This document shows, piece by piece, positions 2,373 through 58,616 of a stretch of 64,000 nucleotides of DNA (its first letter is position 1; each line of letters starts with the position of its first letter). The position numbers and the translations under genes are program-made. The DNA is from a virus. The stretch covers positions 1 to 64,000 of IMG/VR virus record IMGVR_UViG_3300028388_005362; one strand, 5' to 3'. The notes below the pieces were generated by a model. That model was not told the origin of the DNA. It searched no databases and worked only from the letters and a program-made list of their open reading frames with translations.

Positions 2373-2605
2373 GCTATCACGAAAAACTACAAACAGCCCA
2401 CCAGCTCAAGGAACAATTATTCAACAGCGTTGAAGAGGTTGAGCGAGACTTACAGTATTTAGCAAGCGCAGGCTTTCAGACACAGAAGAAGACAGAACAA
2501 TTAGACACCATAGTACTCAAACTCTCTGCCGCATTAACTGTGCTGGACGATGAGTCGACCATTTGTGAACACACTGGAGTTCAGGAAGGAAGCCCTGAAC
2601 TTTAA
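2366..2605 (+). CDS. Hypothetical coiled-coil protein
   Basis: Fills the gap before TerL; ATG at 2366 overlaps the previous gene. Confidence 0.5.
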   Translation: MVSYHEKLQTAHQLKEQLFNSVEEVERDLQYLASAGFQTQKKTEQLDTIVLKLSAALTVLDDESTICEHTGVQEGSPEL

Positions 2606-4510: not shown

Positions 4511-4542
4511 AAAAGACCCTATAATAACACCTCATTTAAAGG

Positions 4543-4606
4543 ATAATTTTATTCTGTATAAACGTCATATAAGCCGTATTTTTGTATTGAAGCATAACAT
4601 AATTAT
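4543..4606 (+). promoter_or_regulatory. Bacteroidota-type promoter of the portal operon with two Lrp-type boxes
   Basis: TATTTTTG (TAnnTTTG) at 4577-4584. ATAAT-TTT-ATTCT at 4543-4555 and ATAAC-ATA-ATTAT at 4594-4606. Confidence 0.55.
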
Positions 4607-4611
4607 GCACA

Positions 4612-9525: not shown

Positions 9526-9532
9526 TCATAAC

Positions 9533-9571
9533 GGAGAACCCCTCATTTTCAGGGGGGTTCTCTCTTTTTTT
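9533..9571 (+). terminator. Rho-independent terminator after MCP
   Basis: GGAGAACCCCTC-loop-GGGGGGTTCTCT followed by a T run. Confidence 0.85.
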
Positions 9572-9591
9572 CAACAGTAACATAGATTATC

Positions 9592-16600: not shown

Positions 16601-19600
16601 TACACTGCTCGTGAGACCATGGCTTCTGATAAGGTGACTATCGCTGAGGGAAATAATACACAGGAGAACCGCGAGATTGCACAGGCGTATGTCAACCTGG
16701 TACCTTCAGGCTCTGCACGTACCACACTGGATGGTAGAATGGCTGCCTTAGGCTCAACGACCTACGTTGCCAGTGAAGACCCTGGTAATATCGATGAGGC
16801 TGCTGGAGTGGTATGGGACCCTGAGAATCTGACCATGAAGTTTGAGCTTCGGGTTTATCCTGATGGGGGAGACATCAACAGCCCAACTGTTGAAGTCACT
16901 GATATTGTAGGAACAGCACACAACCTAACATCTAACTTGGCTGACCGAACCGATTATGACTGGTCTGTTCGAGCCAAGAACGAGGTGTTTGAGTCTGCCT
17001 GGGCAAACGCACGCAACTTTACCACGGTATTTGGTCCACCAGATGCTCCGACACTTGTAGATCCTACTGACGGAGCTGGAGGTGTATCCACCAACCCCTT
17101 ACTTCAGTGGGCTGCTTCTGGCGAAGTGGACGGTTTTGTTCTTCAGTTGACATCCAATTTCGTCGGTCAGACTCCTCAATGGACCGGTCTGGTTGTAGAT
17201 GAAAATGAAACTACTCTGTTAGGCAATGCACGGGATTACCAGGTAACCGGATTGAGCTTCAATACTCAGTACGCCTGGAGGATTATGGCAAAGAACTCTT
17301 ACGGGGATTCTGCCTATGCCGTAGGTACCTTCACCACCGGTAGTGTCCCTGCCCCGGATGCACCAACACCTTTGTCTCCAGCCAACGGTTCGGCAGACAT
17401 CGCAGTCAATGCGGCTTTGAACTGGAACTCTGCTCTAAGAGCATCCTATTACAGGGTAAGAATAATCGACCACAATACCGGACAAACAGTAGTGGAGACC
17501 ACTCAACTGCCCGGTACTACATATTCACTGGGAAGTACAACAGGTATCAATTACGATACGACCTATCGCTGGCAGGTGCTGGCAGGTAATGATACAGGGG
17601 AATCCCCATGGTCTTCTACCTGGTACTTCACCACATCGTCCCGTCCGCTTCCGGGACAGACAGTTCTGATTTCTCCTTCCAACAACGCTTCTGCACAAGA
17701 AGTTCAGCCCACTTTCACATGGGCATCTGACGCCAACGCAGAGGATTATACCTTGGAGGTTTCCACAGACAATCTGGACTTCGACGCCAATATAGTCTAC
17801 ACTGTAGATACTGCAGGAACTTCTCATCAGGTATCAACCCAGTTGAACTACCTGACTACATATTATTGGAGGGTCAAAGCCCGTAACTCATCAGGATATG
17901 GGCCTGCCTCTACCATTCGTACCTTTACTGTAAAGGCTATTCCAGTTCCTGGACAGCCTACCCTACTGACACCTGCTCAGTTCTCAACTGACCTTTCAGC
18001 TCTTCCGAACTTCACTTGGGTAGACGAGCCGTTGAGCGATTCTTACATCCTTCAGGTCAAGAAGATCACTGAGAGTTGGGCAACAGCCAAGAGCTTTACC
18101 CCAGGTGCAGCTACCTATACCATTCAGCAAGCCGACGCTCTGGACTTCTCTGAGGAGTACCAATGGAGAGTAGCCGGTGTGAATGCTTCAGGTACGGGAA
18201 CCTATTCCACCATACGTAACTTCACTGTACAGTCCATTCCTGCTCCTGGAACGCCTACACAGCAGGCTCCGTCTGGAAATGGCATTGCCGTCCGTCCTTC
18301 ATTCACCTGGGATACTGTTCAATATGCAGACCAGTACGAGCTTGAGTTGTGGGAAGAAGGTAAAACCAAAGCAACACTCATCCCTGACTGTAACGCTGGA
18401 TGTACAGAGTATGCTTTGCTGTACGACTTGAAGTACGATACGAACTACTACTGGAGAATGCGTGCGGGCAACTCTACCGGTTGGAGTCCTTGGGGGCCTG
18501 ACCAACTCTTCCGCGTGGGTACTCCTCCTGTATTGAGTGCGCCTGTACACGAAACTCCGGTTGATGGATCTACGAATATGCCGAATCAGCCTTCTGTTTC
18601 CTGGGCCCACGCAGAAAGCGTAGACGAATTTGAGGTGGAATTTGCCACAGATGCAGGGTTCACCAATGTATTTGAGTCCGCTACCCTTAATGAGAGTCAG
18701 CGTATCTACCAGATTCAGACTGTTCTTTCTTACTCTACCACCTATTATTGGAGAGTACGTGCCGCCAAATTCTACAACTCAGGAGACTACCGCCATTTGA
18801 GTGCATACTCTAATGGATGGAGCTTCACTGTTGAAGATCCACCGGTGCCTGGCACACCTACCATCAGCTATCCTACCGGAATCGATAGCCCTCGCCAGCC
18901 ATTGGTACAGTGGAATGACACGGTGGATACGGACACATGGGATATTGACATTGCCGATGATGCAGGTTTCTCCAACATCATCTATACAGCTACTGGTCTG
19001 ACTGCCTCCCAGTATCAGATACCAGCCAAACTGGCTTACAATACGACCTACTATATAAGAGTTCGCTCTGTTAACTCATTCGGAACAAGCGTATGGGCAG
19101 AGGAGAGCTTCACAACTATTGAGCTTCTGGCTCCCGGTACCCCAACAATCAACACGCCATCAAACGGTGATGTGGGTGTATCCAGGGATGTGACTGTGAG
19201 CTGGACACTGGCTTCGTCTTCTGATGAATACGAACTCCAGATCTCCACGGACAACGCTTTTACAGCCCCTGTTGTATATGACAATCTGGGTTCTCTGGAT
19301 TATACCTTCAGCAATCTTACCTATCTGGACACCTATTATGTAAGGGTTCGTGGTAAGAACGAAGCCTACCAGGGAAGTTGGTCTGCTGTGGTCGGGTTCA
19401 CTGTGGAAGAGCCACCAACCCCGGGAAAACCAAACTTGTTAGCTCCTGCAGATAACGACGAGAATGTTTCCCGCTCGGTTACTTTCCAATGGAGTCAGGT
19501 GGTCAATACCGATACCTTCCTGGTGGAGATAGCCACAGACGGTTCGATGAGTAACATCGTATACACCCGAAACGTGGGAAGCGATGTACAGCAACTGGCT

Positions 19601-21076
19601 TTGGGAGAAGACCTGGATTACTTGGGTTCTTACTTCTGGAGGGTTACTGCATCGAATGCCTGGAGAGCCACTCAGTCAGATGTTTCTGCCTTTGTAGTAG
19701 AAGACGCTGCAGAGCCTACGATTCCTGTATTGGGTTCTCCAACTCCTGACCAGAACGATGTGAGTACTACGCCTACATTCCAGTGGTCCAATACCTTCAA
19801 CACAGAGAACTACCACTTGCAGGTATCTCAGGACATCACCTTTGCAAATCAGAGTTTGCTGGTGATAGATGAAGCTCTACTGACCCAGAGCGAGTTTACA
19901 GTCAGCGAGGCGCTGGTTTATCTGACCAAGTACTACTGGAGGGTCAAGGCTACCAACGCTTATAAAGAGAGTGCATGGACAACTGCCCAGCCGTTCATTA
20001 CAACCGATGGTCCTACACCTACTCAGGTGATACAGACCTATCCGGAGGATGGTCAGGTCAATGTGCCTAAGAATACTTCCCTGGTATGGAGACCTTCCAG
20101 CAAGGCTACCTATTACGATCTGGAGATCTCTCCGAATGTGGACTTTATTGGAGCTCGCCAGGTTCAGCTGAACTCTGGTACTCAATACGATGTCTCCGAG
20201 ATAGTTGTCAACAATGACAAGTATTTCTGGAGGGTTCGCGGAGTTAATGTAGCTGACCAAACCTACGTAGGTGACTGGTCTACCATCCGCTCCTTCAGGA
20301 TTGAAAGCGAACAGGCAGAACAGGACCCAAGTGGTGCCCGTCCTGCTTCCAGTATTCAGTTCGACCTGGTGGGATGCAACAGCTTTATCTTCGAACATCA
20401 CTACCGTCTGACGGTATATCCGATAACTCAGAAAGCCCTGACCATCACATTCCCTGACGGAAACGTGCTGCGTTATGCCGAGAAAGCAGAAACCTTCCCA
20501 GAGCTTAACAGCGGTACGGGACTACTGGGTGAGCTGTCTCAGCGCATTTTGGGAGACCTCGATGAATTGGGATACAACACAGGTGCTCCGACCAACATCA
20601 TCATGATGGATTCAGATACCATCAAAAACGATGTGGCGCTCTTCCCTGATATGTTCACCGATGCCAACGGTTTTCCGGCTGCTTACAACTACTCCAGTCT
20701 TCCTGACGGTGTCTACCAGATAGACTTCACCTACCAGGTGGCTGCAGTTGTATCGGAAAGTGAAGCCGCTGCTGAAGTCAAATCAGTGGATGGTAAATCT
20801 ACCCAGTTCACCTTCCGCAAGGAGGTGATGAATACTTGCCTGAGTGATGCCTGCATCAACTCCAAGATTGAGAAGATGTACGAGATACGCTGCAAGGACC
20901 CCATGCGCTGCAATGAGCGTGAGGCGATCCGCAGTCTTATCATGGATGCCACACTTTTAAAAGAAGGCGCAGCAATCGACTTCTCTGAAGGCAGGTTCGC
21001 AAATGCAAATGATAAACTCACCGCGCTGAAGCATTTGTGCTCCACCGGTGAGCTGATCTATAAAAAAGGATGCTAA
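13649..21076 (+). CDS. Giant FN3-repeat tail protein with an inserted polysaccharide deacetylase-like domain and a C-terminal tail-hub-like domain
   Basis: 16 ~95-aa repeats (P.L.SP.NG...PTF.W...Y.L.VS....F...YYWRVRA.N..G.S.WS...FTT), two loop insertions, and a Cys-containing helical C-terminus after DGVYQIDFTY. Confidence 0.8.
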   Translation: MAWSVALNSPANNAVDVDLQPTFTWTKSQSQAGGGAPIFINVYEQPGSPGIPATETVGGVFWTSVPAGTGGNAITNVKDGDGNATTVDVEMRTGWDYGGINSANVTTPSTGPFASDSIAKSFGQDYGGGAFIDLAGLEPNGSYTIYVLAAGAAGSGNIFDIHNEVEAATAGIQNYDAHGVTVPETYQELPNFTTTADGAGDLAIEFNGQFWAMVNAIVIEPASTPDPEPSSVLRVSLSSNLSAPAVEKTLATAETYTLLAGEALAENDGYFWGVSLDGGSTFDTIRSFTTLSNNPLTAPVLTGPADGATEVLRTPTFSWVPTDAATLFDLEVSLNSDFSGTLGVDRWLIENHNTNSYTWVTEFAKEETVYWRVRSTDNIEYNSPWSTSRSFTTRYGVPDAPVLSSPGDGASGVSLSNTFSWTNGGGATEYDIYIDTDSNFSSPAVATALGTTSYTAQVGDMDNSRVYFWKVVARNAYGTAESAVRGFTSAAPNVPNPPGLQSPKNGAVDQYVRPEFDWIASPGATKYNIEIADNPSFTNAITYNDHISTSITINEYLETGTLYYWRVAAGNANGYGSFSSANTFTTQAVQQTNTPVLVSPANNATDQPLQPTFDWDWTAPQAGGGTNYGPLPEASTRNISSIVIDFSSAPSYVNVGLAPLKYNKTGVVTAAIDDSERDAYTSAFQTAQSTFFTDGCGNDIPFSFALAHYIIGYQNKDVHSHPDYSFKYTWAEMAEMAVKGTIPANHGLSDAGDNLALADAYTKWKLSRSQHFPSGLVRGFDQKWYVGTNGADVSAQALANGAYGCDAANYGSQGRTFATGGENLYNSITPETFFAKTYRRFEVQYDDAVNAINAAGATTRPWLNYGFHGGAALSSLINTVASAHGKSGSDKVWFCSQQELIEYMFIREYLRVPHTVNGNQVTITVDQSSVPGDLMFYAATLLVDTDANISNITINGGINTGIKKNSYKITGQDAMINLEWNGNDYTARETMASDKVTIAEGNNTQENREIAQAYVNLVPSGSARTTLDGRMAALGSTTYVASEDPGNIDEAAGVVWDPENLTMKFELRVYPDGGDINSPTVEVTDIVGTAHNLTSNLADRTDYDWSVRAKNEVFESAWANARNFTTVFGPPDAPTLVDPTDGAGGVSTNPLLQWAASGEVDGFVLQLTSNFVGQTPQWTGLVVDENETTLLGNARDYQVTGLSFNTQYAWRIMAKNSYGDSAYAVGTFTTGSVPAPDAPTPLSPANGSADIAVNAALNWNSALRASYYRVRIIDHNTGQTVVETTQLPGTTYSLGSTTGINYDTTYRWQVLAGNDTGESPWSSTWYFTTSSRPLPGQTVLISPSNNASAQEVQPTFTWASDANAEDYTLEVSTDNLDFDANIVYTVDTAGTSHQVSTQLNYLTTYYWRVKARNSSGYGPASTIRTFTVKAIPVPGQPTLLTPAQFSTDLSALPNFTWVDEPLSDSYILQVKKITESWATAKSFTPGAATYTIQQADALDFSEEYQWRVAGVNASGTGTYSTIRNFTVQSIPAPGTPTQQAPSGNGIAVRPSFTWDTVQYADQYELELWEEGKTKATLIPDCNAGCTEYALLYDLKYDTNYYWRMRAGNSTGWSPWGPDQLFRVGTPPVLSAPVHETPVDGSTNMPNQPSVSWAHAESVDEFEVEFATDAGFTNVFESATLNESQRIYQIQTVLSYSTTYYWRVRAAKFYNSGDYRHLSAYSNGWSFTVEDPPVPGTPTISYPTGIDSPRQPLVQWNDTVDTDTWDIDIADDAGFSNIIYTATGLTASQYQIPAKLAYNTTYYIRVRSVNSFGTSVWAEESFTTIELLAPGTPTINTPSNGDVGVSRDVTVSWTLASSSDEYELQISTDNAFTAPVVYDNLGSLDYTFSNLTYLDTYYVRVRGKNEAYQGSWSAVVGFTVEEPPTPGKPNLLAPADNDENVSRSVTFQWSQVVNTDTFLVEIATDGSMSNIVYTRNVGSDVQQLALGEDLDYLGSYFWRVTASNAWRATQSDVSAFVVEDAAEPTIPVLGSPTPDQNDVSTTPTFQWSNTFNTENYHLQVSQDITFANQSLLVIDEALLTQSEFTVSEALVYLTKYYWRVKATNAYKESAWTTAQPFITTDGPTPTQVIQTYPEDGQVNVPKNTSLVWRPSSKATYYDLEISPNVDFIGARQVQLNSGTQYDVSEIVVNNDKYFWRVRGVNVADQTYVGDWSTIRSFRIESEQAEQDPSGARPASSIQFDLVGCNSFIFEHHYRLTVYPITQKALTITFPDGNVLRYAEKAETFPELNSGTGLLGELSQRILGDLDELGYNTGAPTNIIMMDSDTIKNDVALFPDMFTDANGFPAAYNYSSLPDGVYQIDFTYQVAAVVSESEAAAEVKSVDGKSTQFTFRKEVMNTCLSDACINSKIEKMYEIRCKDPMRCNEREAIRSLIMDATLLKEGAAIDFSEGRFANANDKLTALKHLCSTGELIYKKGC

Positions 21077-45115: not shown

Positions 45116-48100
45116 ATGGGAAAAGCCAATTGTCAGATATTCCCGACGGCGCCTAACGGTAAGGATTCCAACCTGTTCAAGGATGTGTTGGAGTCCACCG
45201 GTAGTCGTGAAGCAGCCACTTACGCATACGGATACGCCAGGAGCGAAGAGTTCCGATACAAAATGGGTGACTGGTTGTATAAGAATCCACATAACCCCTA
45301 TAAAGGAACGCTGGACCAGAACGGTGAACCCATCATGGCGGATCTCACTGAGGTGCTTATCACCAAAGACTTCGAGATGCCTCAAACACAGGATGACCGG
45401 TTCAAGCCTTTACACAAGGTACGGGAACTGGAGAAAAGGGACCTATACAAACAACTCGGGGAATTCAAGCGTAAGCTCAAGGAAACAGAAAAAGATGTTG
45501 ACAGGGTCAAGTACCGTCAGCTTATCCAGCGTACTGAGCAGCGAATCGATGCTTTGGATATGGAAATGGAAGACATGTTGAAGAAGTCCTCCCTGGAAGA
45601 GATTGAACAGTATGCCCGTCAGGACCTTGATCGTGCATGGGACATCTTACAGAAGGATGAAATCACTCCGGGGGAAATGTACCTGGTGGGACACATCATC
45701 TCTTTGTGGCAGAAAGCCGGAGACTTCTCCGAGGATGACCACCTGTTCTTCGACCAGGCAGAGTTAGAAGCCCGCCGGGAAGGACTCAAGGAGATAACCG
45801 ATAAGTTCCTGGAATGGAAGGATGAGGCGGACCACATGTACACCAACTACTTGCTTCCCCTCCAGCGAAACATGGTAGAGTCTTCTGTCAAGGAAACCTT
45901 TGGAGAGAACGCTTCCAGCGGTCTGGATAACTCCAGAAAGGATAAATCGTGGGCGGTGCTAAATTTTTTGGACATCACTGAAACAAGCGATACGCTGCTG
46001 CAAGCCATGGGTGCATGGGTGAAGACAGCTCAATTCAAAGCCCATCAGGAAAGCGAAGCAGTAATGGCTGAGATTGACCAGTTGATTAAAGAGAGCGGTG
46101 TGAAGGATTTCGATCTGTTCATGCAGACCTTCTCCAACGAAGACTCAAGACTCACCGGTAACCTGGTATTCCGCTGGACACAGGCATACTTTGACGAATC
46201 CAAACGGCAGAAAGCCCGCTTGCATAAGGCACGTAACCAGGCAATGCTAATCGAAGACCCTAAGGAAAGGGGCCGTAAGATTGCCAAGATACACCAGAAC
46301 TACTTCCGTCAGATGGCAAAGCGTTCGATAACCTTTGACCTCAGGAAGCTGTTCCCGGATGCGGATATGTACAACGAGACCTCTTTTACCGAAGAAGAGC
46401 GCAGAAATCACGAAGCTGAACTCCGTCTGCACCTGGGAGATAAAGGCTACGAGCGATTCATTGAAGACGCTGAGGAGCTCTTGGAAGACTACAAGAAGGA
46501 CAGAGAAGCCTATATGCTGGAGTTGGAAGCTGAATTCCAGGATGAAATGTCTGCAGGAGACACCTCGAACTTCGATGTGCACCTGCGCGTATGGGAGATG
46601 TCAAACTCACCTTACTGGCATGCGCAGTTCCAGGAAGAGGGATACCCATCCAAAGGAATACAGGGCATGTACGCCAAGCCTACCTCTCGGTATGTCAAGA
46701 CGGTTCCCCGCCGATTCGATACTGACGGCAATGACACCGGCTATTATGATAAGAAGTATGAGCAGATAGAGGCAGACGAGAAGAAACTTAAGCTCTACGA
46801 CTATATCTTTGACACCCTCAAGCAATCCCGGGAATACTTACCCAACCACAAGATCTCTTTCATGCAGGTCAACACCTTGCCCATGATTGAGAAGACCGTG
46901 TTGGAGACCTTTGCCAGGGATGGCATGCTCTCAGGAGCAGCAGGTATGTGGGAGTCCTTAAAGAAAGCCACACGTTCAGATGCTTTATCGGATACTGAAT
47001 ACAACGATATTGACCCTTTGACCGGAGAAGCGGGCATGACCCATCAGTTAGCCTTCGTATCCAATCCTACCAAAAGGGTAGAAGAGTATGTCGAGCGCAA
47101 GGAGATTGAATGGACGGGGAAGAACGGCAAGCCTGAATCGGATGCCGAGTTAAACGAATTGCTTCTGCTCAAAGAAGAGTGGCGTAGAGAAGCCACCGAC
47201 AAGCTGGCGAACCAGAAGTCCCATGATTTGGGTATGGTCACCAAGGCATTTGCCGCTATGGCGCTCTCATTTAAGCACAAGGCGCTTATCGAACCCCAGA
47301 TGACCCTAAGCTACAAGTTGATGAATAACTCCCTTGAGCAGGTCACAAACGATGCCGGATCACAAATGGTTGACAAGGACGGGAACCCGATGAAGAAGAA
47401 GGGCCTGGAGAACATGCGTAAGATGTTGAAGGATTTCATGGAGACGTCCTATTATGGGTATCCCGTGCGCATCAAGCAAGGGCAGACCAAGAAAAGGGTG
47501 CTTACTCCTCAGGAAAAGAAAGTCCGTAAGGAGATTGAGTCTTCCATGGAACAGCTCAAAGCAATGCACGAAAAGGGAGACCTTACCGATGCGGAATACA
47601 ACGGCAAGCAACAAAAACTGCAGGACCAACTCGATAAGCTGGGCGGAGTATTTACCGCAAGTCAGTTCGGAGATATGATGCTCAAGTACGTCCAGATACT
47701 TGGACTGGGATGGAACGTGAAGGCCGCCATTGCGAATTTGGGCTTTGGTTTCATCTCCAATATCATTGAGGCTGCCGATGGTCGCTCGTTCACTATCGGG
47801 GAGTATTTCAAGGCAATGTCCCTGGTCAAAAGTTCTGTATTGAAGAACATGTCCTTCAACCAGATTGAGACCAAGAACGCCAAGAAGATTCGCAATATGA
47901 TGGATAAACTTGACGTACTCAAGGACAGCCGATACGAGCTGTACAAGGCTACTGTCGGGGGCAACAAGCTCAAAGAGAAACTCAACTGGCTTGACCCGTA
48001 TAACCCCAATGCCCGAACCGAGTACATCAACCAGGCTTCCATTATGGTTGCCATGTTGATGCACGACGGACTCTGGGATAAGTACGATGAGAATGGTAAT

Positions 48101-48913
48101 CTCAAAGAAGGCGAGGAAGTCGACGAGAAGGCATTCATTGACACCAAACTCCGCATCGACAAACTCAACAAGATCTCCCACGGTAATTACGACCCTGACC
48201 TGACATTGTCGGTCAAGCGTAAGTTTTTGGGAAGAGCTTTCTCTCAGTTCCGTACCTGGGCCTTTATGGGATTTGCCAACCGTTTTCAGGCAGGCTTTTA
48301 TGATAACCAGTTGGGATATGAGAGAAAGGGAAGATACCGCTCTTATAGCGCACTTGCCCAACAAATAGGCAAGGTGATGAAACAGGAGAGCGGGTATAGG
48401 GCAGCAGCCTTTGGTGCCAAAGAACTGTTGCGTGCAGCTACCTTCGGGGTATATAACCCGGAAAGCGGTATGGTAGAAGGACTCAGCGAGGTGGATCAAG
48501 CCAATCTTCGAAAGAACCTGATGGAGCTTTATCTCTATCTGGCGTTGGCAATCCTGGTGAGGGCATTCTCAGCCATGGCAGACACAGACGATGACAAAGA
48601 GGCGACATGGAAGTATAGTACTTTCTTCACCATCAATATCCTTGCCCGTCTGCAGACTGATATATTGTTCTACACGAATCCGTCGGAATTTGAACGATTG
48701 CAGAGAAACGCTCTGGCTGTATTCTCTTTGGTGGTAGACAGTCAGAAGGCTCTGGATTCCACATATAATTGGATGGTCGGGGGCGACGACATTCTCCAAA
48801 GGGGGCCTAATAAAGGGGAATCAAGGATGCTTCGTGACTGGTCTAAATTGATTCCCATGTGGAATCAGAAGTATCGCATGGAGGCAGCGTACTCGATGAT
48901 ATTCGACCGTTAA
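45116..48913 (+). CDS. Large internal virion / polyvalent-type protein
   Basis: N-terminal APNGKDSNLF...FRYKMGDW...LDQNGEP; C-terminal HGNY...GRAFSQFRTW. Confidence 0.75.
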   Translation: MGKANCQIFPTAPNGKDSNLFKDVLESTGSREAATYAYGYARSEEFRYKMGDWLYKNPHNPYKGTLDQNGEPIMADLTEVLITKDFEMPQTQDDRFKPLHKVRELEKRDLYKQLGEFKRKLKETEKDVDRVKYRQLIQRTEQRIDALDMEMEDMLKKSSLEEIEQYARQDLDRAWDILQKDEITPGEMYLVGHIISLWQKAGDFSEDDHLFFDQAELEARREGLKEITDKFLEWKDEADHMYTNYLLPLQRNMVESSVKETFGENASSGLDNSRKDKSWAVLNFLDITETSDTLLQAMGAWVKTAQFKAHQESEAVMAEIDQLIKESGVKDFDLFMQTFSNEDSRLTGNLVFRWTQAYFDESKRQKARLHKARNQAMLIEDPKERGRKIAKIHQNYFRQMAKRSITFDLRKLFPDADMYNETSFTEEERRNHEAELRLHLGDKGYERFIEDAEELLEDYKKDREAYMLELEAEFQDEMSAGDTSNFDVHLRVWEMSNSPYWHAQFQEEGYPSKGIQGMYAKPTSRYVKTVPRRFDTDGNDTGYYDKKYEQIEADEKKLKLYDYIFDTLKQSREYLPNHKISFMQVNTLPMIEKTVLETFARDGMLSGAAGMWESLKKATRSDALSDTEYNDIDPLTGEAGMTHQLAFVSNPTKRVEEYVERKEIEWTGKNGKPESDAELNELLLLKEEWRREATDKLANQKSHDLGMVTKAFAAMALSFKHKALIEPQMTLSYKLMNNSLEQVTNDAGSQMVDKDGNPMKKKGLENMRKMLKDFMETSYYGYPVRIKQGQTKKRVLTPQEKKVRKEIESSMEQLKAMHEKGDLTDAEYNGKQQKLQDQLDKLGGVFTASQFGDMMLKYVQILGLGWNVKAAIANLGFGFISNIIEAADGRSFTIGEYFKAMSLVKSSVLKNMSFNQIETKNAKKIRNMMDKLDVLKDSRYELYKATVGGNKLKEKLNWLDPYNPNARTEYINQASIMVAMLMHDGLWDKYDENGNLKEGEEVDEKAFIDTKLRIDKLNKISHGNYDPDLTLSVKRKFLGRAFSQFRTWAFMGFANRFQAGFYDNQLGYERKGRYRSYSALAQQIGKVMKQESGYRAAAFGAKELLRAATFGVYNPESGMVEGLSEVDQANLRKNLMELYLYLALAILVRAFSAMADTDDDKEATWKYSTFFTINILARLQTDILFYTNPSEFERLQRNALAVFSLVVDSQKALDSTYNWMVGGDDILQRGPNKGESRMLRDWSKLIPMWNQKYRMEAAYSMIFDR

Positions 48914-49401
48914 AGGTCTTTGACCATACTCATACTTACCTGGGTCTGCCATTCACGGGAGACCCTTTTTGCTACCCTTCTTTTGATGTCAATAACAGTG
49001 AGGTCCTTGACCAGACCTTTAAGGACGTTGTTGGCTTGTTCAATACTTGAGAACATCCAGTGCATCCACAAAGTTACCATGCCCGTCATTTCGTGGGGCT
49101 CGCTCTGGGATATATGCACACAGAGGTTTTCATCCTCTGCACGGGCAGTCAGGGCCTGGATGGTAGCTTCAGAGGCCATTATTTCCACCATTTCCCTGTG
49201 TTCTGTTCTGAAAAAGTCGGTATTCACCTTGATGGTGTACCCGGAGATGACTCCGTTGGTGATCAGGTTCTGCACCCTTACCAATGTAGGAGGAGGGCTA
49301 AGTCCTATCTTCACCGCCAAGTTCCGATTTGTGATACTGGCATCCTGTTCCAGGATTTTAAGTATCTCGACGTCTTTCTCGTCGATGACTTTCTTTTTCA
49401 T
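48910..49401 (-). CDS. Lrp/AsnC family transcriptional regulator
   Basis: IDEKDVEILKILEQDASITNRNLAVKIGLSPPPTLVRVQNLITNGVISGYTIKVN HTH, plus a diverged C-terminal RAM-like domain (HEMTG). Confidence 0.88.
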   Translation of the reverse strand: MKKKVIDEKDVEILKILEQDASITNRNLAVKIGLSPPPTLVRVQNLITNGVISGYTIKVNTDFFRTEHREMVEIMASEATIQALTARAEDENLCVHISQSEPHEMTGMVTLWMHWMFSSIEQANNVLKGLVKDLTVIDIKRRVAKRVSREWQTQVSMSMVKDL

Positions 49402-49469
49402 AGCTAAAGTTAATAACTGATAATTGTTGTTTGTTGGTTAAAGTAACGAAATAAAATAATTTATAACAA

Positions 49470-49498
49470 GCAAAAGAGGACATTAAATCCCCTTTTGC
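49470..49498 (-). terminator. Terminator between ung and the Lrp gene
   Basis: Minus strand GCAAAAGGGGA-loop-TCCTCTTTTGC followed by TTGTT. Confidence 0.7.
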
Positions 49499-49514
49499 AA
49501 AATTAAGTAAAAAC

Positions 49515-50588
49515 TTACCACTTTACGGTCTTTTTCCCGTGGTCCATTAGATAAACATTCGCCTGGGAAAAATGTTTGCACCCGAAAAACCCTCTGTTTG
49601 CGCTGAGAGGAGAAGGGTGTGCGGCTTCAAGGATCAGGTGTCGCTTCGCATCGATTAGGCCCTTGAGATTTCTGGCAGGGTTGCCCCACAACATGAATAC
49701 GACATTCTCCAAATTGTCGTTTATAAGGGAAATAGTTTTGTGGGTGAAGTTCTGCCAGCCTATCCTGCTATGAGAAGCGGGCTCTCCTTTTCGCACGGTT
49801 AAAATGGTATTGAGTAAGAATACACCTTGATAGGCCCATCGCTCCAGTGAGGGAAAACTCCTCAGGTAGAGTCCTCGGCTGACGTCCTTTTCTATCTCTT
49901 TGTAGATGTTCTTCAGAGAAGGAGGTACAACGGAGGGGTCCTTGCTTGAAAAAGCAAGACCGTGTGCCATTCCAGGGGTGTGGTAAGGGTCTTGTCCGAG
50001 TATCACAACTTTTATGTTGTCAAACCCGGTCAATCGATAAGCGTTGAATACGTCGGATGAATCCGGGAAGATGGTATGGGAAGCTCTTTCTTGCTTGAGC
50101 AACTTCATCATTTCCTTCATATAAGGCTGAAGGAACTGCTTACCTATCTTCGGTGCCCACTGATGCCCCACCAGGTCCACTATCTTCTCGTGAAGAGCAG
50201 ATTTAGGACGGCGGGTCCAATGGGAAAGTCCGACTATCCACCAACCGGAGTCATCGGGAGGGGTTCCAGGATACCGGTTCCCGTCCTCGATGACATGTTC
50301 GGCGTTGATGAGATAATCCACATACGGGGTTCTGTAACAGATCACCTTCCCTGCCGAAGACAATCCTTGTCTTACTAAGAATGCCTGTTGTGAAGGCATC
50401 CAATGCTCGTCAGTGACTTCGACAAGGGAGGTGTCGTTATCGACGGTTGCCAGAAGCTCCTCGCTTCCCCTTCCGTCGTCCGGTTCCAGAATTATCATAT
50501 CATCGCGTAATTTTGCCGTAAATGTTGATGGTTGGTACATGTTTAAGGGTTTCAACAGGGTCAGCTCCAAGCAGTTCGCATATTTCAT
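49515..50588 (-). CDS. ung: Uracil-DNA glycosylase (family 1) with ~130-aa N-terminal extension
   Basis: VVILGQDPYH, HGLAFS, PPSLKNIY, GVFLLN and HPSPLSA. Confidence 0.95.
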   Translation of the reverse strand: MKYANCLELTLLKPLNMYQPSTFTAKLRDDMIILEPDDGRGSEELLATVDNDTSLVEVTDEHWMPSQQAFLVRQGLSSAGKVICYRTPYVDYLINAEHVIEDGNRYPGTPPDDSGWWIVGLSHWTRRPKSALHEKIVDLVGHQWAPKIGKQFLQPYMKEMMKLLKQERASHTIFPDSSDVFNAYRLTGFDNIKVVILGQDPYHTPGMAHGLAFSSKDPSVVPPSLKNIYKEIEKDVSRGLYLRSFPSLERWAYQGVFLLNTILTVRKGEPASHSRIGWQNFTHKTISLINDNLENVVFMLWGNPARNLKGLIDAKRHLILEAAHPSPLSANRGFFGCKHFSQANVYLMDHGKKTVKW

Positions 50589-50916
50589 ACCAGCTCTGAC
50601 GGAAGTCTTTGTTGGTATGGATAAGATCCACGGCTTTACTGTTGGCGAACAAGGCTGTGGTCCGATCCTTGTTCAACAGCGGCCCTGCTGTTTCTGCAGT
50701 GTATTTGTATATACCGGTCAAGGCTAACCAAAAGAGTTTACGCCCGTCCGCATAGTAACGTGTCTGGGTCTTGCTGACCAGGTTTTCACGGGTCAACCCG
50801 GTTACTTTCAAAACGGCTTTGTAAACATCTTTCTCAGGGTCCGCAATAAGCCCCAGAATTACTTCCGGGGCGCTGCGGTTGTCTATGGCTTGCTGTATAG
50901 CTTCAATCTTTGTCAT
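50500..50916 (-). CDS. DnaA C-terminal (domain IV)-like HTH protein
   Basis: GLTRENLVSKTQTRYYADGRK...AGPLLNKDRTTALFA parallels the DnaA 'S..R......R....IG..F..RDHTTV' pattern. Confidence 0.65.
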   Translation of the reverse strand: MTKIEAIQQAIDNRSAPEVILGLIADPEKDVYKAVLKVTGLTRENLVSKTQTRYYADGRKLFWLALTGIYKYTAETAGPLLNKDRTTALFANSKAVDLIHTNKDFRQSWYEICELLGADPVETLKHVPTINIYGKITR

Positions 50917-51112
50917 AACCTTTGAATCTTACCTGTCGACTTTGGCACCGGGGACAGGAGATGGCTCCTGTTTTTGGGTCCTCTACGGTACGGGTTTTGT
51001 CGTACATAATTAAACTGCTTGACTGTGGGGGTCGGGGGTGATCAAATACGTGACTGCAATGCAGACACTTTAATTTGACCAGATGGTCGTGTATCTGTTT
51101 CTCCGGGCTCAT
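50903..51112 (-). CDS. Zinc-ribbon protein
   Basis: CLHC...CPRC; likely ATG at 51112. Confidence 0.6.
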   Translation of the reverse strand: MSPEKQIHDHLVKLKCLHCSHVFDHPRPPQSSSLIMYDKTRTVEDPKTGAISCPRCQSRQVRFKGYDKD

Positions 51113-51212
51113 ATCCACAATGTGCGCAGAATCCCTTGGCTGCAGGGACAATCAAATTATCCTTGCCGCACTTGGGGCATTCTGGTAATGGGTCTTTAAT
51201 CTTCTTGTTCAT
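51042..51212 (-). CDS. Small zinc-ribbon protein (56 aa, not in ORF track)
   Basis: MNKKIKDPLPECPKCGKDNLIVPAAKGFCAHCGYEPG... Confidence 0.55.
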   Translation of the reverse strand: MNKKIKDPLPECPKCGKDNLIVPAAKGFCAHCGYEPGETDTRPSGQIKVSALQSRI

Positions 51213-52245
51213 CGGCTGCTACCTCCATAGGTTCTAATACAAACTCCCCACCATTCTCCAGCTCTTCGCGGGAGAATATCCAATTCTGATCCTTAGAGTG
51301 GGAGAGAATACGACGGATGAGGTCCATGTATTCTTCTCTACCCATTTCCAAGTACTTCCTGTGTACTTTGAACCTACGTACCAGGTTGTAGCCCGTGGTC
51401 TCAACAACGACCATATAATGGTCTGCGGGTTTGAAACCTTTAAAGCCAGCTTCTTCCAGGCGGTACATCACTGCACGCTCGTAGAATGCCATCTGGCGGT
51501 AGTATCGATAATATTCGAATGAATTTTGAAAACGTTGGACGCTCTTTGACGTGGTTTTAAGGTCTCTGATGGAGAAGGTCTTGTTCTCCATGTCGAGTAG
51601 AAGTCCGTCGAGCTTACTTTTACACTCAACAATTTGTCCGTCCACATCCAGTTTCCAGAATATCTCTTTCTCCAGAAACAGTTGTTGCTTGGATGTTTGT
51701 GGTTCAGCAAACATCTCTTTAACAGAAGGACGTTGAGTGAGGTTCAGTTTGATTCTGGTGATATTGGACATGGTCTTTGCATCCACGATGTCCTTGCCTT
51801 CGTTGACAAGCATGAAGTTCCAATATGCTTGCCCACTCTTTTGTATATCCTTGATGATACGATCGTCCTTGTAGTTCCCCTTGCCGTATTTTAATTCGTT
51901 GGCTGCTTTGAGAACAAAGACCTTGTTATCTTCAATGGATGTATTTCCCCCGGCTTCTCCAAAGCTGAGGGATTCTGTGCTTCCTGCCTCTTTTCTGTAC
52001 TGTAAGGCTTTGTCGATGATGTTCTTGACCGTGTCACTGGGCACTTTGTCCAGCATGACCGGTTCAATATTCTCCAATATCAACTTATGGACCAAATCGC
52101 CCAAGGTGAGTGCCTTGGTATCGTCTCCTTTAAAGGTGCCCATGACATAGTCGTGGTACTTTTCAGGAGAGCCGCCTTCATCCGGGTTGATGTAGGAGAG
52201 TGAGCTATTGTTGATAGCTTTTGACTCCTCATAGGTAGTGTTCAT
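51196..52245 (-). CDS. PD-(D/E)XK exonuclease (RecE/ExoVIII-like)
   Basis: GDLVH, EKEIFW, CKSKLD, DLKTT and YYRQMAFY. Confidence 0.8.
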   Translation of the reverse strand: MNTTYEESKAINNSSLSYINPDEGGSPEKYHDYVMGTFKGDDTKALTLGDLVHKLILENIEPVMLDKVPSDTVKNIIDKALQYRKEAGSTESLSFGEAGGNTSIEDNKVFVLKAANELKYGKGNYKDDRIIKDIQKSGQAYWNFMLVNEGKDIVDAKTMSNITRIKLNLTQRPSVKEMFAEPQTSKQQLFLEKEIFWKLDVDGQIVECKSKLDGLLLDMENKTFSIRDLKTTSKSVQRFQNSFEYYRYYRQMAFYERAVMYRLEEAGFKGFKPADHYMVVVETTGYNLVRRFKVHRKYLEMGREEYMDLIRRILSHSKDQNWIFSREELENGGEFVLEPMEVAADEQED

Positions 52246-52284
52246 AACTTTATTTTCTTTCTTGATTGCTTGATTAAAGAATCA

Positions 52285-52310
52285 CAAATTTAAACAGAAT
52301 TATATTCTGT
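52285..52310 (-). promoter_or_regulatory. Bacteroidota promoter with adjacent perfect Lrp-type operator
   Basis: TAAATTTG on the - strand at 52285-52292; palindrome ACAGAAT-TAT-ATTCTGT at 52294-52310. Confidence 0.6.
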
Positions 52311-52312
52311 GA

Positions 52313-52383
52313 AAGGGTAGGAAGGAGAATACTCATAAATGAGTATTTTTCACAAAATTTGTGTTAATCTCCTTCCTATCCTT
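52313..52383. repeat. Nested inverted-repeat (branched hairpin) element
   Basis: 16-bp outer arms with 1 mismatch, enclosing ATACTCAT-AA-ATGAGTAT and CACAAA-A-TTTGTG. Confidence 0.8.
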
Positions 52384-52397
52384 GGACAAGCAAAATA

Positions 52398-53807
52398 TTA
52401 TGCTTTTATTTCGAAGTCGGGTCCCGTTTCATTGGGATTGTCCATTGACAGATCCACCAAGCGGCCTTTGAGCAGCTCAATGACCTCATCCAGTTCGACG
52501 TCTTCAATATCACGAGAAGCCATCTCATGACGCTTGACGCGCAACTCCTGCAAACGCTCACTTACTTTGGAGCGTTCGTAGTCCAGAAAGTCCACTTCGA
52601 AATACTTAGTATCTACCTCACGAATTTTCCCGTCCTCGTCCAGTTCACACACCGCATAAGGGTAGTATCTGCTGGTACGCATCTTCTCAAAATTGTAGTC
52701 GTAAGGAACTGCGGCAACGTCAGCCGGATTGACCAGGCATGCCAGGACAAAACGGTCTTCCTGATGCCCCCCAAACATTTTCACATACCCGGGTGCACCT
52801 ACGTGCAGACCGGAAGAACATGTGTTGTTCGGGTTGGTATCGCAATCTTCCATTGGCATTTCCACTGGGGTCCCCAGCTTGATGGTCATGCGGCGGCTGT
52901 GAATGTCGGTGAAGACATCTTCGCCATCGGTGGAGACCTTGAACTTTTGGATGAGTTCTTCGTACAGCTGTTCGAGGTTGCCCAGGTGATGCCACAACTC
53001 TGTTTCGTTCACCAGAGCTTCGACCTCAGGATTGGTCAGACGCTGGTATCCCAAACTCTCAGCCAAGGCTAAGCCGGCCTCAAATGTATAATCCGGGTTG
53101 TTGTACTTGAAGCGTTCGTATGCCTGGTTACGGTCGAAGTCGTCCTGCAGATACTCCACAACATGGTCCCACTCACGCTCATCTCTCCAGAACTCCACAT
53201 TTCTTTCCACGATCTCTGCCCACTCCTTGGGAGTGTATAGCATGAATCCATCATCTTCGTCTTCTCCCTGTCGGAACACCTCGTAATCCTGAGGCTTGCG
53301 TCCGTTGGAGATATGATAGAGGAATTTGCCGGAAATAAAAGCTGCATAGTTCTTGAAGGATTGTCCTTTCCACAGAACAGATTTGTAGGCGATAAAGTAG
53401 CCGTGGTCTGTGATTGGGAACTGGAAGCGGTCTGCAAATGAGAACAAATCATCCTTGACGTGCTCATTCTCATTAGTCATTAGCAGACGCCAGAAGTTGA
53501 TCAGTGGGTCAACTCCCAGCTCATCCTCTTCTCTTTCCTTGATGCGGTCGACCATCAGCTGAGGTAAGGCACGACGGATACCATCGAGGAAGTACTTACC
53601 CTTGCGGTTCTTTTTGAGTACACCTTCGGTGGTCATGAAATCATCTGAGAAAAATTCAGCAAGCATGCTGGGCCAGTCGATCAGTTTTTTGGCGTCCTCA
53701 ACCATTTGCCTGGCGTGTTCCTCTTCTTCGAAGGGAACCTGATACTGTTTTCCATTAACATACGCAGTTACAGTACTACCACTGCGCATTACAATAGGTT
53801 TTGCCAT
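52398..53807 (-). CDS. rIIB-like protein
   Basis: PLINFWRLLMTN, PITDHGYFIAYKSV, CSSGLHVG and VNPADVAAVPYDYNFEKMRTSRY. Confidence 0.8.
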   Translation of the reverse strand: MAKPIVMRSGSTVTAYVNGKQYQVPFEEEEHARQMVEDAKKLIDWPSMLAEFFSDDFMTTEGVLKKNRKGKYFLDGIRRALPQLMVDRIKEREEDELGVDPLINFWRLLMTNENEHVKDDLFSFADRFQFPITDHGYFIAYKSVLWKGQSFKNYAAFISGKFLYHISNGRKPQDYEVFRQGEDEDDGFMLYTPKEWAEIVERNVEFWRDEREWDHVVEYLQDDFDRNQAYERFKYNNPDYTFEAGLALAESLGYQRLTNPEVEALVNETELWHHLGNLEQLYEELIQKFKVSTDGEDVFTDIHSRRMTIKLGTPVEMPMEDCDTNPNNTCSSGLHVGAPGYVKMFGGHQEDRFVLACLVNPADVAAVPYDYNFEKMRTSRYYPYAVCELDEDGKIREVDTKYFEVDFLDYERSKVSERLQELRVKRHEMASRDIEDVELDEVIELLKGRLVDLSMDNPNETGPDFEIKA

Positions 53808-57841: not shown

Positions 57842-58531
57842 TTAGAAGCTCAGTTCTTCGGTAGTACTGGCGTCCATGGTTGCACTATCAGCAGCTTCTT
57901 CAGCCGTCTCGTTCTTCGGAGCCTCAGCGGCATCGAAGTTCATGGGAGTGCTGGCTGCAGGAGAACCATCACCATCAGGCTTTGGCTTCTTGACCACGCG
58001 GTCATATTTAGGATCAAGTACTAAACGTGTAGGAACACCCTCTTTCATCAATTCAACAAACGGGCTGATAGCACGCTTGGGGAAGGTGGTGTAGTCCTTA
58101 TTGTTGAGGATGAGCTTGATGCGAAGAGGAATACCTTGGTAATGATTTCCAGCCAGGGCAATGTATTGCTCTGCCAACACTTTGAAGTTGGGAGCTTTCA
58201 ATACCAACTGCTCAGCTGGGATGAAAGGCTCCAAAATATGCTTCAGACGTTCTCCCATGGCATTCATCTCACTCTTGATGAACTCTTTTGGATCTTTCTG
58301 GAATACAGTCTTGGCGAGCTTTTCCCACTGCTTGAAATCCGGTGAAAACTCCTTGTGTACAAAAGTAGAACCTGCAGGGTCAGTAAAGGTGATGGCGATA
58401 ACCATCTTGTCTGAGCCTTGTTTCATGGGTTCGTACTTGATTGAGGTAATTTGCACATTCTCGTTGATACCAGCGTTCATGAATTTACCAGCGCCGGTGG
58501 ACTCGTCAAAACCGAAATGATTTTCTGACAT
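57842..58531 (-). CDS. Putative single-stranded DNA-binding protein
   Basis: Lies between the Sak4-like ATPase and primase; flexible acidic tail ending EELSF. Confidence 0.55.
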   Translation of the reverse strand: MSENHFGFDESTGAGKFMNAGINENVQITSIKYEPMKQGSDKMVIAITFTDPAGSTFVHKEFSPDFKQWEKLAKTVFQKDPKEFIKSEMNAMGERLKHILEPFIPAEQLVLKAPNFKVLAEQYIALAGNHYQGIPLRIKLILNNKDYTTFPKRAISPFVELMKEGVPTRLVLDPKYDRVVKKPKPDGDGSPAASTPMNFDAAEAPKNETAEEAADSATMDASTTEELSF

Positions 58532-58559: not shown

Positions 58560-58600
58560 CAAATTTACGAATTATTACTCTTTATACAGTATATAATTAT
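58560..58600 (-). promoter_or_regulatory. Bacteroidota promoter with upstream Lrp-type box
   Basis: TAAATTTG on the - strand at 58560-58567; AGTAT-ATA-ATTAT at 58588-58600. Confidence 0.5.
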
Positions 58601-58616
58601 GCTTAAAGCACAAAAA

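What the first reader, a model, noticed from the sequence alone, without database searches (positions are those of the whole stretch)
48910..49401. Phage-encoded Lrp (feast/famine) regulator with candidate operators at both late and replication promoters
Seen in sequence: an Lrp/AsnC gene at the junction of the late and early modules, separated from the ung operon by a terminator. Its HTH (LAVKIGLSPPPTLVRV) closely resembles E. coli Lrp (LSKRVGLSPTPCLERV). Three intergenic TAnnTTTG promoters carry 13-bp 5-3-5 boxes like the E. coli Lrp site AGAAT-TTT-ATTCT. At the portal promoter they are ATAAT-TTT-ATTCT (4543) and ATAAC-ATA-ATTAT (4594). A perfect AGAAT-TAT-ATTCT (52296) sits 3 nt from the -7 element of the nuclease-ung operon. 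AGTAT-ATA-ATTAT (58588) lies before the SSB-primase-rII operon, with a weaker CGAAT half-site 20 bp away. The 4543 and 58588 boxes sit 21 and 20 nt upstream of their -7 elements. Established: Lrp-family proteins bind 5-3-5 sites and sense amino acids through the C-terminal RAM domain. Inference: a metabolite-responsive regulon that gates both replication and head assembly, for example a lysis-delay or carrier-state switch in a phage with no integrase in this window. Caveats: these regions are AT-rich, and the RAM domain is diverged.
Basis: partly seen in the sequence, partly recalled or inferred. Interest (0 to 1): 0.8.

Follow-up and report, generated by a model that had tools for sequence, protein, structure and literature searches.

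The report
Phage Lrp regulator with paired operators
A crAss-like phage that also carries an integrase encodes an Lrp-type DNA-binding protein, and an E. coli-Lrp-like 15-base palindrome sits, mostly in pairs five DNA turns apart, on nearly all of its host-type promoters, so this protein is probably the switch that silences the phage, though binding is untested.

Summary
ORF 48910-49401(-) is a full-length Lrp/AsnC-fold protein: an AsnC-type HTH plus a RAM-fold domain that Pfam does not detect. The four boxes exist at the stated positions. They are the cores of a 15-bp palindrome, CAGAAT-N3-ATTCTG, with about 11 strong sites on the 93.9-kb contig, all intergenic, and several weaker partners. 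Seven promoters carry two boxes 51-52 bp apart, bracketing or overlapping the TAnnTTTG -7 element; several downstream boxes contain the start codon. The boxes are about 50-fold enriched over shuffled AT-rich spacers.

Two other crAss-like phages share the same box and pairing, and their Lrp orthologue has the same recognition helix (PTLVRVQ). The box is near-absent from 1.36 Mb of fragments from relatives in which no Lrp gene was found (most stop short of where it would lie) and from two near-complete Lrp-less genomes. The Lrp gene co-occurs with an integrase (4 of 4 versus 0 of 2).

Best reading: a phage-encoded, cooperatively binding Lrp-type global repressor tied to lysogeny. Binding is inferred, not shown. 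Metabolite sensing is unsupported. "No integrase" is true only of the window.

The parts
48910..49401 (-). Lrp/AsnC-fold regulator gene, 163 aa: HTH at residues 8-48, RAM-fold beta-alpha-beta-beta-alpha-beta at residues 68-143
   Evidence: Pfam HTH_24 and HTH_AsnC-type. AF2 model with a 21-sequence alignment has pLDDT 90.3. The top ~40 Foldseek PDB hits are full-length Lrp/AsnC-family folds (two chains are the AhbA/B enzyme of that fold), TM 0.55-0.80, mostly 0.7-0.8. The family profile's best PDB match is E. coli Lrp, 3.2e-24.
49470..49498 (-). Terminator-like hairpin between the UDG gene and the Lrp gene
   Evidence: Pattern scan finds a 12-pair stem with 5 G-C pairs and a T-rich tail.
4542..4556 (+). 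Upstream operator box O1 of the portal promoter. It ends 20 nt before the -7 element, so its TCTG lies where a -33 TTTG would be.
4577..4584 (+). Bacteroidota-type -7 element TATTTTTG of the portal promoter
   Evidence: The portal protein is identified by PHROG, 5e-106.
4593..4607 (+). Downstream operator box O2 of the portal promoter, 51 bp from O1
52295..52309 (-). Perfect palindromic box, 2 nt upstream of the -7 element (52285-52292) of the nuclease-UDG operon
   Evidence: It matches the E. coli Lrp 15-mer consensus at 14 of 15 positions.
52243..52257 (-). Weak partner box, 52 bp from 52295, containing the nuclease start codon
   Evidence: PWM score 9.6 bits.
58587..58601 (-). Single box ending 19 nt upstream of the -7 element (58560-58567) of the operon starting at 57842-58531 and continuing to primase, rIIA and rIIB
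   Evidence: A box lies at the orthologous position in phage G413.

Best explanation
The window covers bases 1-64000 of a 93.9-kb crAss-like phage contig that also carries a tyrosine integrase. ORF 48910-49401(-) encodes a phage-lineage Lrp/AsnC (feast/famine) regulator. I propose that it binds a 15-bp palindrome, CAGAAT-N3-ATTCTG, which is essentially the E. coli Lrp consensus.

There are about 11 strong sites and several weaker partners. They sit on nearly all strong host-sigma (TAnnTTTG) promoters of the replication, structural and integrase operons. Most come as two operators 51-52 bp apart (five helical turns). The upstream one covers the -33 position or abuts the -7 element. The downstream one lies at about +5 to +25 and often contains the start codon.

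A RAM-domain oligomer would contact both operators, wrap or loop the core promoter and shut it off. The gene and the boxes occur only in integrase-bearing members of the clade. I therefore read the protein as the global, lysogeny-type repressor of a phage whose operons each have their own host-type promoter.

Shown: the fold, the motif, its enrichment, its geometry, and its conservation and co-occurrence. Inferred: that this protein is the binder (about 0.6), that it represses (about 0.7 given binding), and the link to lysogeny.
For: Protein. It has an AsnC-type HTH, a pLDDT 90 model with HTH plus beta-alpha-beta-beta-alpha-beta and full-length Lrp/AsnC fold matches. The family profile is closest to E. 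coli Lrp among solved structures, 3.2e-24 over positions 4-157.

Motif.
- In a PWM scan the 11 best hits are all in the ~6% of the contig that is intergenic, with a score gap from 14.9 to 11.4.
- CAGAAT in a 6-3-6 arrangement is the only recurrent intergenic palindrome half-site.
- Five pairs are exactly 51 bp apart and two are 52 bp apart; 0 of 2000 permutations give 5 pairs at one distance.
- The spacing is kept even where the -7 element sits at a different place between the boxes.
- Sites match yAGhAwATTwTdCTr at 11-15 of 15 positions. Random AT-rich 15-mers average 7.3, with P(>=13) = 6e-4.

Comparative.
- The gene is a positional orthologue, after UDG or the nuclease and convergent with the structural block, in five other contigs: L002-L005 and G413.
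- Phages G001:C25 and G413 have Lrp helix PTLVRVQ(K/N)L and carry the same box at orthologous promoters, paired at 62 and 52 bp.
- 1.36 Mb of relatives' fragments show no Lrp gene and only 7 hits of 14 bits or more.
- Near-complete G008 and G009 lack Lrp, integrase and boxes.
- Lrp occurs with an integrase in 4 of 4 genomes.
- Among 56 loci around the late-operon promoter, the only three with a strong box are among the five that have an integrase there. All five show a two-box layout at 52 bp, although most of their box copies score poorly against the window's matrix (-0.1 to 8.9 bits).

The rival wHTH protein is present in 55 of the 56 related loci fetched around the late-operon promoter and in G008 and G009 whether or not they have boxes, and is only 24% identical between two box-bearing phages. 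The Lrp HTH is about 70% identical between them.
Against: - No binding data exist.
- Phage G002 has an Lrp orthologue and an integrase but no CAGAAT box and no recurrent palindrome. Its helix differs (PTLMRVR), but its operator was not found. L003 likewise has an Lrp orthologue (helix PTLTRVN) and no box in the 16 kb examined.
- The co-occurrence rests on few complete genomes: 3 box-positive against 3 box-negative.
- Three other proteins share the box's phyletic pattern: a dNMP kinase, a 302-aa protein of the structural block, and a stretch of the 2475-aa FN3-repeat protein at 13649-21076. The integrase tracks the Lrp gene but is also present in box-less G002.
- A 51-52 bp spacing is not the ~30-bp phasing recalled for E. 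coli Lrp arrays (memory, not tested).
- In the window no clear promoter was found for the Lrp gene itself.
- A box centred near -40 could also serve a class-II-type activator.
Confidence: 0.5

Rival explanations
1. The regulon is real and the Lrp protein binds it, but as an activator or timer of the lytic programme. It would bind near -40 at promoters that lack a good -33 TTTG and recruit host RNA polymerase to middle and late operons, like a class II activator or the portable promoter cassettes of T1-like phages.
For: In the commonest geometry the box ends 18-20 nt before the -7 element, and TCTG or ACTG stands where TTTG would be. E. coli Lrp both activates and represses (established knowledge). 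The boxed promoters are those of replication and structural genes.
Against: Several boxes abut the -7 element: 52295 and 79269 in this contig, C25 80556 and 62571, and G413 55401. Partner boxes lie downstream of the start site over start codons. These are positions typical of repressors. The system occurs only in integrase-bearing phages. An integrase operon is also boxed, at 90308.
Confidence: 0.18
2. The boxes are real operators, but another factor reads them. Candidates are a host Lrp/AsnC-type or other global regulator, the small LexA-DBD-like winged-helix protein (ORF 93479-93814, downstream of the best double box), or an unannotated phage protein. The Lrp gene would then be unrelated or would only modulate that factor.
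For: The box equals the canonical Lrp consensus, so a host Lrp paralogue could read it; the MAG that holds C25 has its own AsnC-type gene. The winged-helix gene sits in the operon driven by the strongest double box in all three box-bearing phages. G002 keeps an Lrp orthologue without boxes.
Against: The winged-helix gene is present in 55 of the 56 loci fetched around that promoter and in box-less G008 and G009, and its helix is poorly conserved between box-bearing phages. The boxes vanish in relatives without the Lrp gene. No other sequence-specific regulator was found among the proteins shared by the box-bearing phages.
Confidence: 0.25
3. The boxes are not protein operators. They would be chance AT-rich palindromes, RNA hairpins in leaders, or recombinase sites.
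For: The spacers are 21-31% G+C. The downstream boxes are transcribed and could fold. An integrase and a paralogue are encoded nearby.
Against: The boxes are 50-fold enriched over dinucleotide shuffles. The 51-bp spacing is never reached by permutation. The motif is conserved across phages whose proteins are 30-50% identical. The arms vary without compensation, with 4-5 of 6 positions symmetric in most sites, and the upstream boxes lie upstream of the start site. A 3-bp centre is too short for a tyrosine-recombinase crossover region (established knowledge).
Confidence: 0.03

Closest known systems
E. coli Lrp (leucine-responsive regulatory protein) and its SELEX consensus yAGhAwATTwTdCTr / AGAATwwwATTCT
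   Same: Same two-domain fold. It is the best solved sequence match of the family profile (3.2e-24). The recognition helix has the same S-P-x-P-x-L-x-R-V frame. The phage box matches the consensus at 11-15 of 15 positions. Multiple phased sites per promoter suggest cooperative binding.
   Different: It is phage-encoded and about 21% identical overall in the structural alignment. The RAM sequence is not detected by Pfam, and the SGDFDYLL stretch of E. coli Lrp faces non-conserved residues in the family. The sites are high-information pairs at a fixed 51-52 bp rather than degenerate arrays. The host phylum is Bacteroidota.
Archaeal feast/famine regulators with defined palindromic boxes (FL11/PH1519, Ss-LrpB, LrpA)
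   Same: Close fold matches (PH1519, TM 0.77-0.83). They bind 13-15-bp palindromes with an A/T centre, and regularly spaced boxes are bound cooperatively with DNA wrapping (established knowledge, recalled).
   Different: Those regulators act on their own gene or a few metabolic operons. This one would cover about ten promoters of a virus and is linked to an integrase.
Lysogeny repressors of temperate phages (lambda CI, P22 C2 and similar)
   Same: Co-occurrence with an integrase, palindromic operators overlapping lytic promoters, and paired operators suggesting cooperative binding.
   Different: The fold is unrelated: Lrp/AsnC rather than Cro/CI HTH plus an S24 peptidase. No cleavage domain or antirepressor was found. 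Operators lie on nearly every operon rather than at one or two early promoters. Expression in a lysogen is unknown.
Repressor and anti-repressor genes reported in epsilon crAss-like phages (PMC11054128)
   Same: Evidence that some crAss-like phages carry lysogeny-type regulators.
   Different: That paper describes a conventional prophage repressor with BRO/KilAC anti-repressors, and it names neither Lrp/AsnC proteins nor operators.

Membership tests
Lrp/AsnC (feast/famine regulatory protein) family | N-terminal AsnC-type helix-turn-helix domain | tested here: met
   Pfam HTH_AsnC-type 5.4e-11 and HTH_24 7.4e-14 at residues 6-52. All 21 family members hit both models.
Lrp/AsnC (feast/famine regulatory protein) family | C-terminal RAM domain with beta-alpha-beta-beta-alpha-beta fold | tested here: met
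   The AF2 model (pLDDT 90.3) shows this topology at residues 68-143. Full-length Foldseek matches to about 40 Lrp/AsnC structures. The profile aligns to E. coli Lrp through position 157.
Lrp/AsnC (feast/famine regulatory protein) family | Sequence signature of the RAM domain (Pfam AsnC_trans_reg, PF01037) | tested here: not met
   None of the 21 family members reaches E <= 0.01 for PF01037. The domain is diverged in sequence though not in fold.
Lrp/AsnC (feast/famine regulatory protein) family | Dimers assembling into tetramers, octamers or larger through RAM domains | not testable with these tools
   No multimer prediction was available. The fixed 51-52 bp pairing of sites is indirect support only.
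Lrp/AsnC (feast/famine regulatory protein) family | Binding of amino-acid or other small effectors in the RAM interface | tested here: inconclusive
   The C-terminal half has no column conserved in 70% or more of the family. The SGDFDYLL stretch of E. coli Lrp aligns to non-conserved positions. No pocket analysis was possible.
Lrp/AsnC (feast/famine regulatory protein) family | Sequence-specific binding to 13-15-bp palindromes with an A/T centre | not testable with these tools
   In silico only: the box matches the E. coli Lrp consensus, and the box co-occurs with the PTLVRVQ helix in 3 of 3 genomes.
Phage lysogeny repressor (functional class) | Occurs in phages with an integration module | tested here: met
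   An integrase is present in all four Lrp-bearing genomes tested for one and in neither of two near-complete Lrp-less genomes. Boxes occur only in integrase-bearing anchor loci.
Phage lysogeny repressor (functional class) | Operators overlap lytic promoters | tested here: met
   Boxes cover the -33 position, abut the -7 element or lie over start codons at 7-9 promoters. The promoters themselves are consensus matches, not mapped start sites.
Phage lysogeny repressor (functional class) | Expressed in the lysogen and inactivated on induction | not testable with these tools
   No integrated copy and no RNA data were available. No sequencing run was listed. No S24 peptidase or antirepressor was seen.

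The most novel reading that the evidence does not exclude
An Lrp/AsnC-fold protein, not a CI-type repressor, is the master lysogeny repressor of a group of temperate crAss-like phages. It would silence every host-sigma promoter of the prophage through operator pairs five helical turns apart. Its diverged RAM domain would be the induction sensor, so prophage induction would respond to a small metabolite rather than to RecA.
Probability: 0.3. Interest if true: 0.85.

Novelty: new variant of a known kind. Interest (0 to 1): 0.68.

Why it matters
How crAss-like phages persist with their Bacteroidota hosts is an open question, and no lysogeny switch has been defined for them. This finding supplies a named candidate regulator, its exact operator, a map of about ten target promoters and three independent phage genomes with the same design. 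The question can therefore be tested directly with gel shifts and promoter reporters.

If confirmed, it would also be a first worked example of a feast/famine (Lrp/AsnC) protein used as a virus-wide repressor. It would also give a compact, portable repressor-operator pair for Bacteroidota genetics. I found no paper describing Lrp/AsnC regulators in crAss-like phages in the library searched.

Tried and rejected
- Megablast of 48000-53000 against the phage collection found no match. tblastn of the protein there gave only weak, partial hits.
- A single-sequence AF2 model was useless, pLDDT 40. The alignment-based model replaced it.
The contigs of P0004, P0005 (89.9 kb), P0025 (46.7 kb) and others could therefore not be read.
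- The search for related loci with the 21-sequence alignment failed for lack of a conserved stretch. A smaller alignment worked.
- I considered the LexA-DBD-like winged-helix protein as the binder and rejected it as less likely. It is present in 55 of the 56 related loci examined, and its helix is poorly conserved.
- I considered the integrase paralogue or recombination sites and rejected them on the 3-bp centre and the promoter-fixed geometry.
- I considered RNA hairpins and rejected them because the arms change without compensation.
- No operator could be found in G002 by palindrome or k-mer counting.
- Fragments L138, L105, L145, L149 and L151 are too incomplete to say whether they carry an Lrp gene.
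- The look-up of sequencing runs listed no run and no RNA holder.
- A search of 400 other Bacteroidota genomes found no further member of the subfamily at E <= 1e-30.
Full report
**Setting.** The window is bases 1-64000 of a single 93,879-bp virus contig with 47% G+C.
- The + strand from 160 to 48913 holds the packaging and structural genes. PHROGs identify the large terminase (2550-4184), the portal (4612-6909) and the major head protein (8095-9525). There are also giant proteins of 2475, 1435, 3975 and 1265 aa.
- The - strand from 48910 onwards holds replication genes. These are a UDG fusion, a PD-(D/E)XK nuclease, rIIB and rIIA homologues, primase, a Sak4-like ATPase, a DnaB-like helicase and a DNA polymerase.
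- This is the layout of crAss-like phages. Intergenic promoters carry the Bacteroidota -7 motif TAnnTTTG.

**The gene.** ORF 48910-49401(-) encodes 163 aa.
- Residues 6-52 hit HTH_AsnC-type and HTH_24. phmmer against PDB sequences puts E. coli Lrp first.
- Pfam does not detect a RAM domain in this protein or in any of 20 relatives.
- With a 21-sequence alignment, AlphaFold2 gives pLDDT 90.3. The model has three helices followed by beta-alpha-beta-beta-alpha-beta at residues 68-143.
- Foldseek then returns about 40 full-length Lrp/AsnC/FFRP structures with query TM of 0.55-0.80, mostly above 0.7.
- A profile of the family matches E. coli Lrp at 3.2e-24 over positions 4-157.
- The protein is therefore a member of the fold family with a sequence-diverged RAM domain.
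- The family is small. There is one near hit among 5.8 billion clustered proteins and 25 representatives at E <= 1e-10. At E <= 1e-30 it was not found in 400 other Bacteroidota genomes.

**The boxes.**
- When every TAnnTTTG promoter of the contig is aligned, the 13-mers turn out to be the core of a 15-bp palindrome, CAGAAT-N3-ATTCTG. Upstream copies are often followed by TATAA.
- The same pattern finds three further sites in the 30 kb outside the window (78814, 93143, 93194), all at promoters.
- A position weight matrix places its 11 best hits in intergenic DNA, which is about 6% of the contig. They are at 52295, 78762, 93142, 78813, 93193, 90308, 83170, 58587, 4542 and 4593. The score then drops from 14.9 to 11.4 bits.
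- Blind counting of palindromes gives CAGAAT (6-3-6) as the only recurrent intergenic half-site.

**Geometry.**
- Among 62 sites of 6 bits or more, five pairs are exactly 51 bp apart: 4542/4593, 78762/78813, 79269/79320, 85445/85496 and 93142/93193. Two more pairs are 52 bp apart: 52243/52295 and 83118/83170.
- No single distance reaches five pairs in 2000 permutations; the maximum is 3.
- In one layout the upstream box ends 18-20 nt before the -7 element, so its TCTG or ACTG lies where the -33 TTTG would be.
- In the other layout (52295, 79269) the box abuts the -7 element.
- The 51-52 bp spacing is the same in both layouts, so it is not a by-product of promoter spacing.
- The downstream box often contains the start codon (93205, 79332, 85447 and 52245).
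- The arms vary without compensation, which argues for a protein site rather than an RNA stem.
- The boxed promoters serve the portal operon, the nuclease-UDG operon, the primase-rII operon, the 1665-aa protein, several small early-region genes, the operon that leads into the terminase, and the small ORF preceding the integrase.

**Likeness to the Lrp consensus.** The E. coli consensus sequences yAGhAwATTwTdCTr and AGAATwwwATTCT are quoted in PMC5554404. The phage sites match the 15-mer at 11-15 of 15 positions. Random AT-rich 15-mers average 7.3, and 0.06% of them reach 13.

**Relatives.**
- The Lrp-like gene holds the same position, after UDG or the nuclease and convergent with the end of the structural block, in five other contigs. 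These are L002 (=G002, 85 kb), L003, L004, L005 (=G001:C25, a 96-kb contig binned in a Bacteroidetes MAG) and G413 (92.5 kb).
- C25 and G413 have the recognition helix PTLVRVQ(K/N)L, as the window does.
- Both carry the same box as their best intergenic matches to the window-trained matrix: C25 at 82346, 10382, 10444 and 17483, and G413 at 55401.
- Both have a box pair at the orthologous promoter in front of the g93205-like gene, spaced 62 bp in C25 and 52 bp in G413. G413 has three more 52-bp pairs.
- G002 has helix PTLMRVR and no such box. L003, another Lrp-bearing fragment (helix PTLTRVN), also shows no box in its 16 kb.
- Eighty fragments found through the Sak4-like protein (794 kb) and 56 found through the g93205 protein (570 kb) show no Lrp gene and only seven hits of 14 bits or more. 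Most of these fragments stop short of the junction where the Lrp gene would lie.
- The near-complete relatives G008 (96%) and G009 (99%) lack the Lrp gene and have no hit above 12.5 bits. A positive control confirms that the same search finds the gene where it is known to be.

**Rival binders.**
- Outside the window the contig encodes a small protein with a LexA-type winged helix (93479-93814; E 4.7e-5, just under the Pfam cut-off). It lies in the operon behind the best double box.
- That protein is present in 55 of the 56 anchor loci and in G008 and G009, whether or not they have boxes.
- It is only 24% identical between the window and C25. The Lrp HTH is about 70% identical between them.
- No other recognisable sequence-specific regulator is shared by the box-bearing phages.
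- A host Lrp-type protein cannot be excluded.

**Link to lysogeny.**
- The contig carries a tyrosine integrase at 90682-91899.
- Integrases are also present in C25, G413 and G002, but not in G008 or G009.
- Of the 56 anchor loci, only five have an integrase beside the anchor (L105, L107, L138, L149 and L150). These include the only three loci with a strong box. All five show a two-box promoter layout with 52-bp spacing, though most of their box copies are degenerate and score -0.1 to 8.9 bits.
- The Lrp gene, the boxes and the integrase thus travel together.
- In a phage whose operons each have a host-type promoter, a prophage would need a repressor acting at every one of them. That rationale is inference.

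**The regulator's own expression.**
- A terminator-like hairpin separates the Lrp gene from the UDG gene.
- In the window I found no TAnnTTTG between the hairpin and the start codon.
- In G413 the gene has its own unboxed TATATTTG promoter. In C25 its promoter has a weak box abutting the -7 element.

**What is not supported.**
- Metabolite sensing is not supported. The RAM domain is not conserved in sequence across the family.
- Binding, oligomeric state, the sign of regulation and expression in a lysogen are all untested.

**Literature.** Searches of the held library found no paper on Lrp/AsnC proteins in crAss-like phages. The paper on epsilon crAss-like phages describes a conventional repressor and anti-repressors.

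Noticed in passing
G000:C1:89811-90290 (+), outside the window (L093:11811-12290): A Tad2-like (Thoeris anti-defence 2) domain protein, Pfam 5.8e-23, lies just upstream of the small ORF and integrase.
   Followed up: no
G000:C1:90682-91899 and 91911-93008 (+), outside the window: A tyrosine integrase (Phage_int_SAM_5 2.5e-13 plus Phage_integrase) is followed by a 365-aa protein with no Pfam hit. An earlier scan note calls the latter a dead integrase paralogue; its tblastn matches in C25 and G413 fall in those phages' integrase genes. Box 90308 lies upstream of the small ORF that precedes the integrase.
   Followed up: partly
window 49515-50588 (-): The uracil-DNA glycosylase domain occupies only residues 190-347 of a 357-aa protein. 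The N-terminal ~190 residues have no family hit and are partly conserved in relatives.
   Followed up: no
window 50500-50916 (-): A 138-aa ORF has a weak DnaA C-terminal HTH hit (3e-4, below the cut-off). It has no homologue in C25 or G002.
   Followed up: no
window 52322-52345: An inverted repeat AATACTCAT-AA-ATGAGTATT lies between the rIIB gene and the boxed nuclease promoter. It may be a terminator for the rIIB operon, but there is no T-run on the - strand.
   Followed up: no
L002 (G002) 2056-2174 and 9367-9667; G002:C1:74892-75010: This Lrp-bearing relative has no TAnnTTTG promoters in the fetched locus. It has tandem CTCTCTAC / AACTCTCTAC repeats directly upstream of genes, a different and unexplained regulatory or translation signal.
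   Followed up: no
G000 as a whole: the genome search reports the record as linear with a CheckV completeness of 66%, and I found no terminal repeat. G413 is also rated 66%. The estimate may be off for this clade.
   Followed up: no
L006 (Lentimicrobiaceae MAG contig CAZJCG010000003.1) 10001-10486: A member of the same Lrp subfamily (32% identical, helix PTLVRVKYL) lies among many small ORFs with no synteny to the crAss-like phages. It may belong to another mobile element.
   Followed up: no
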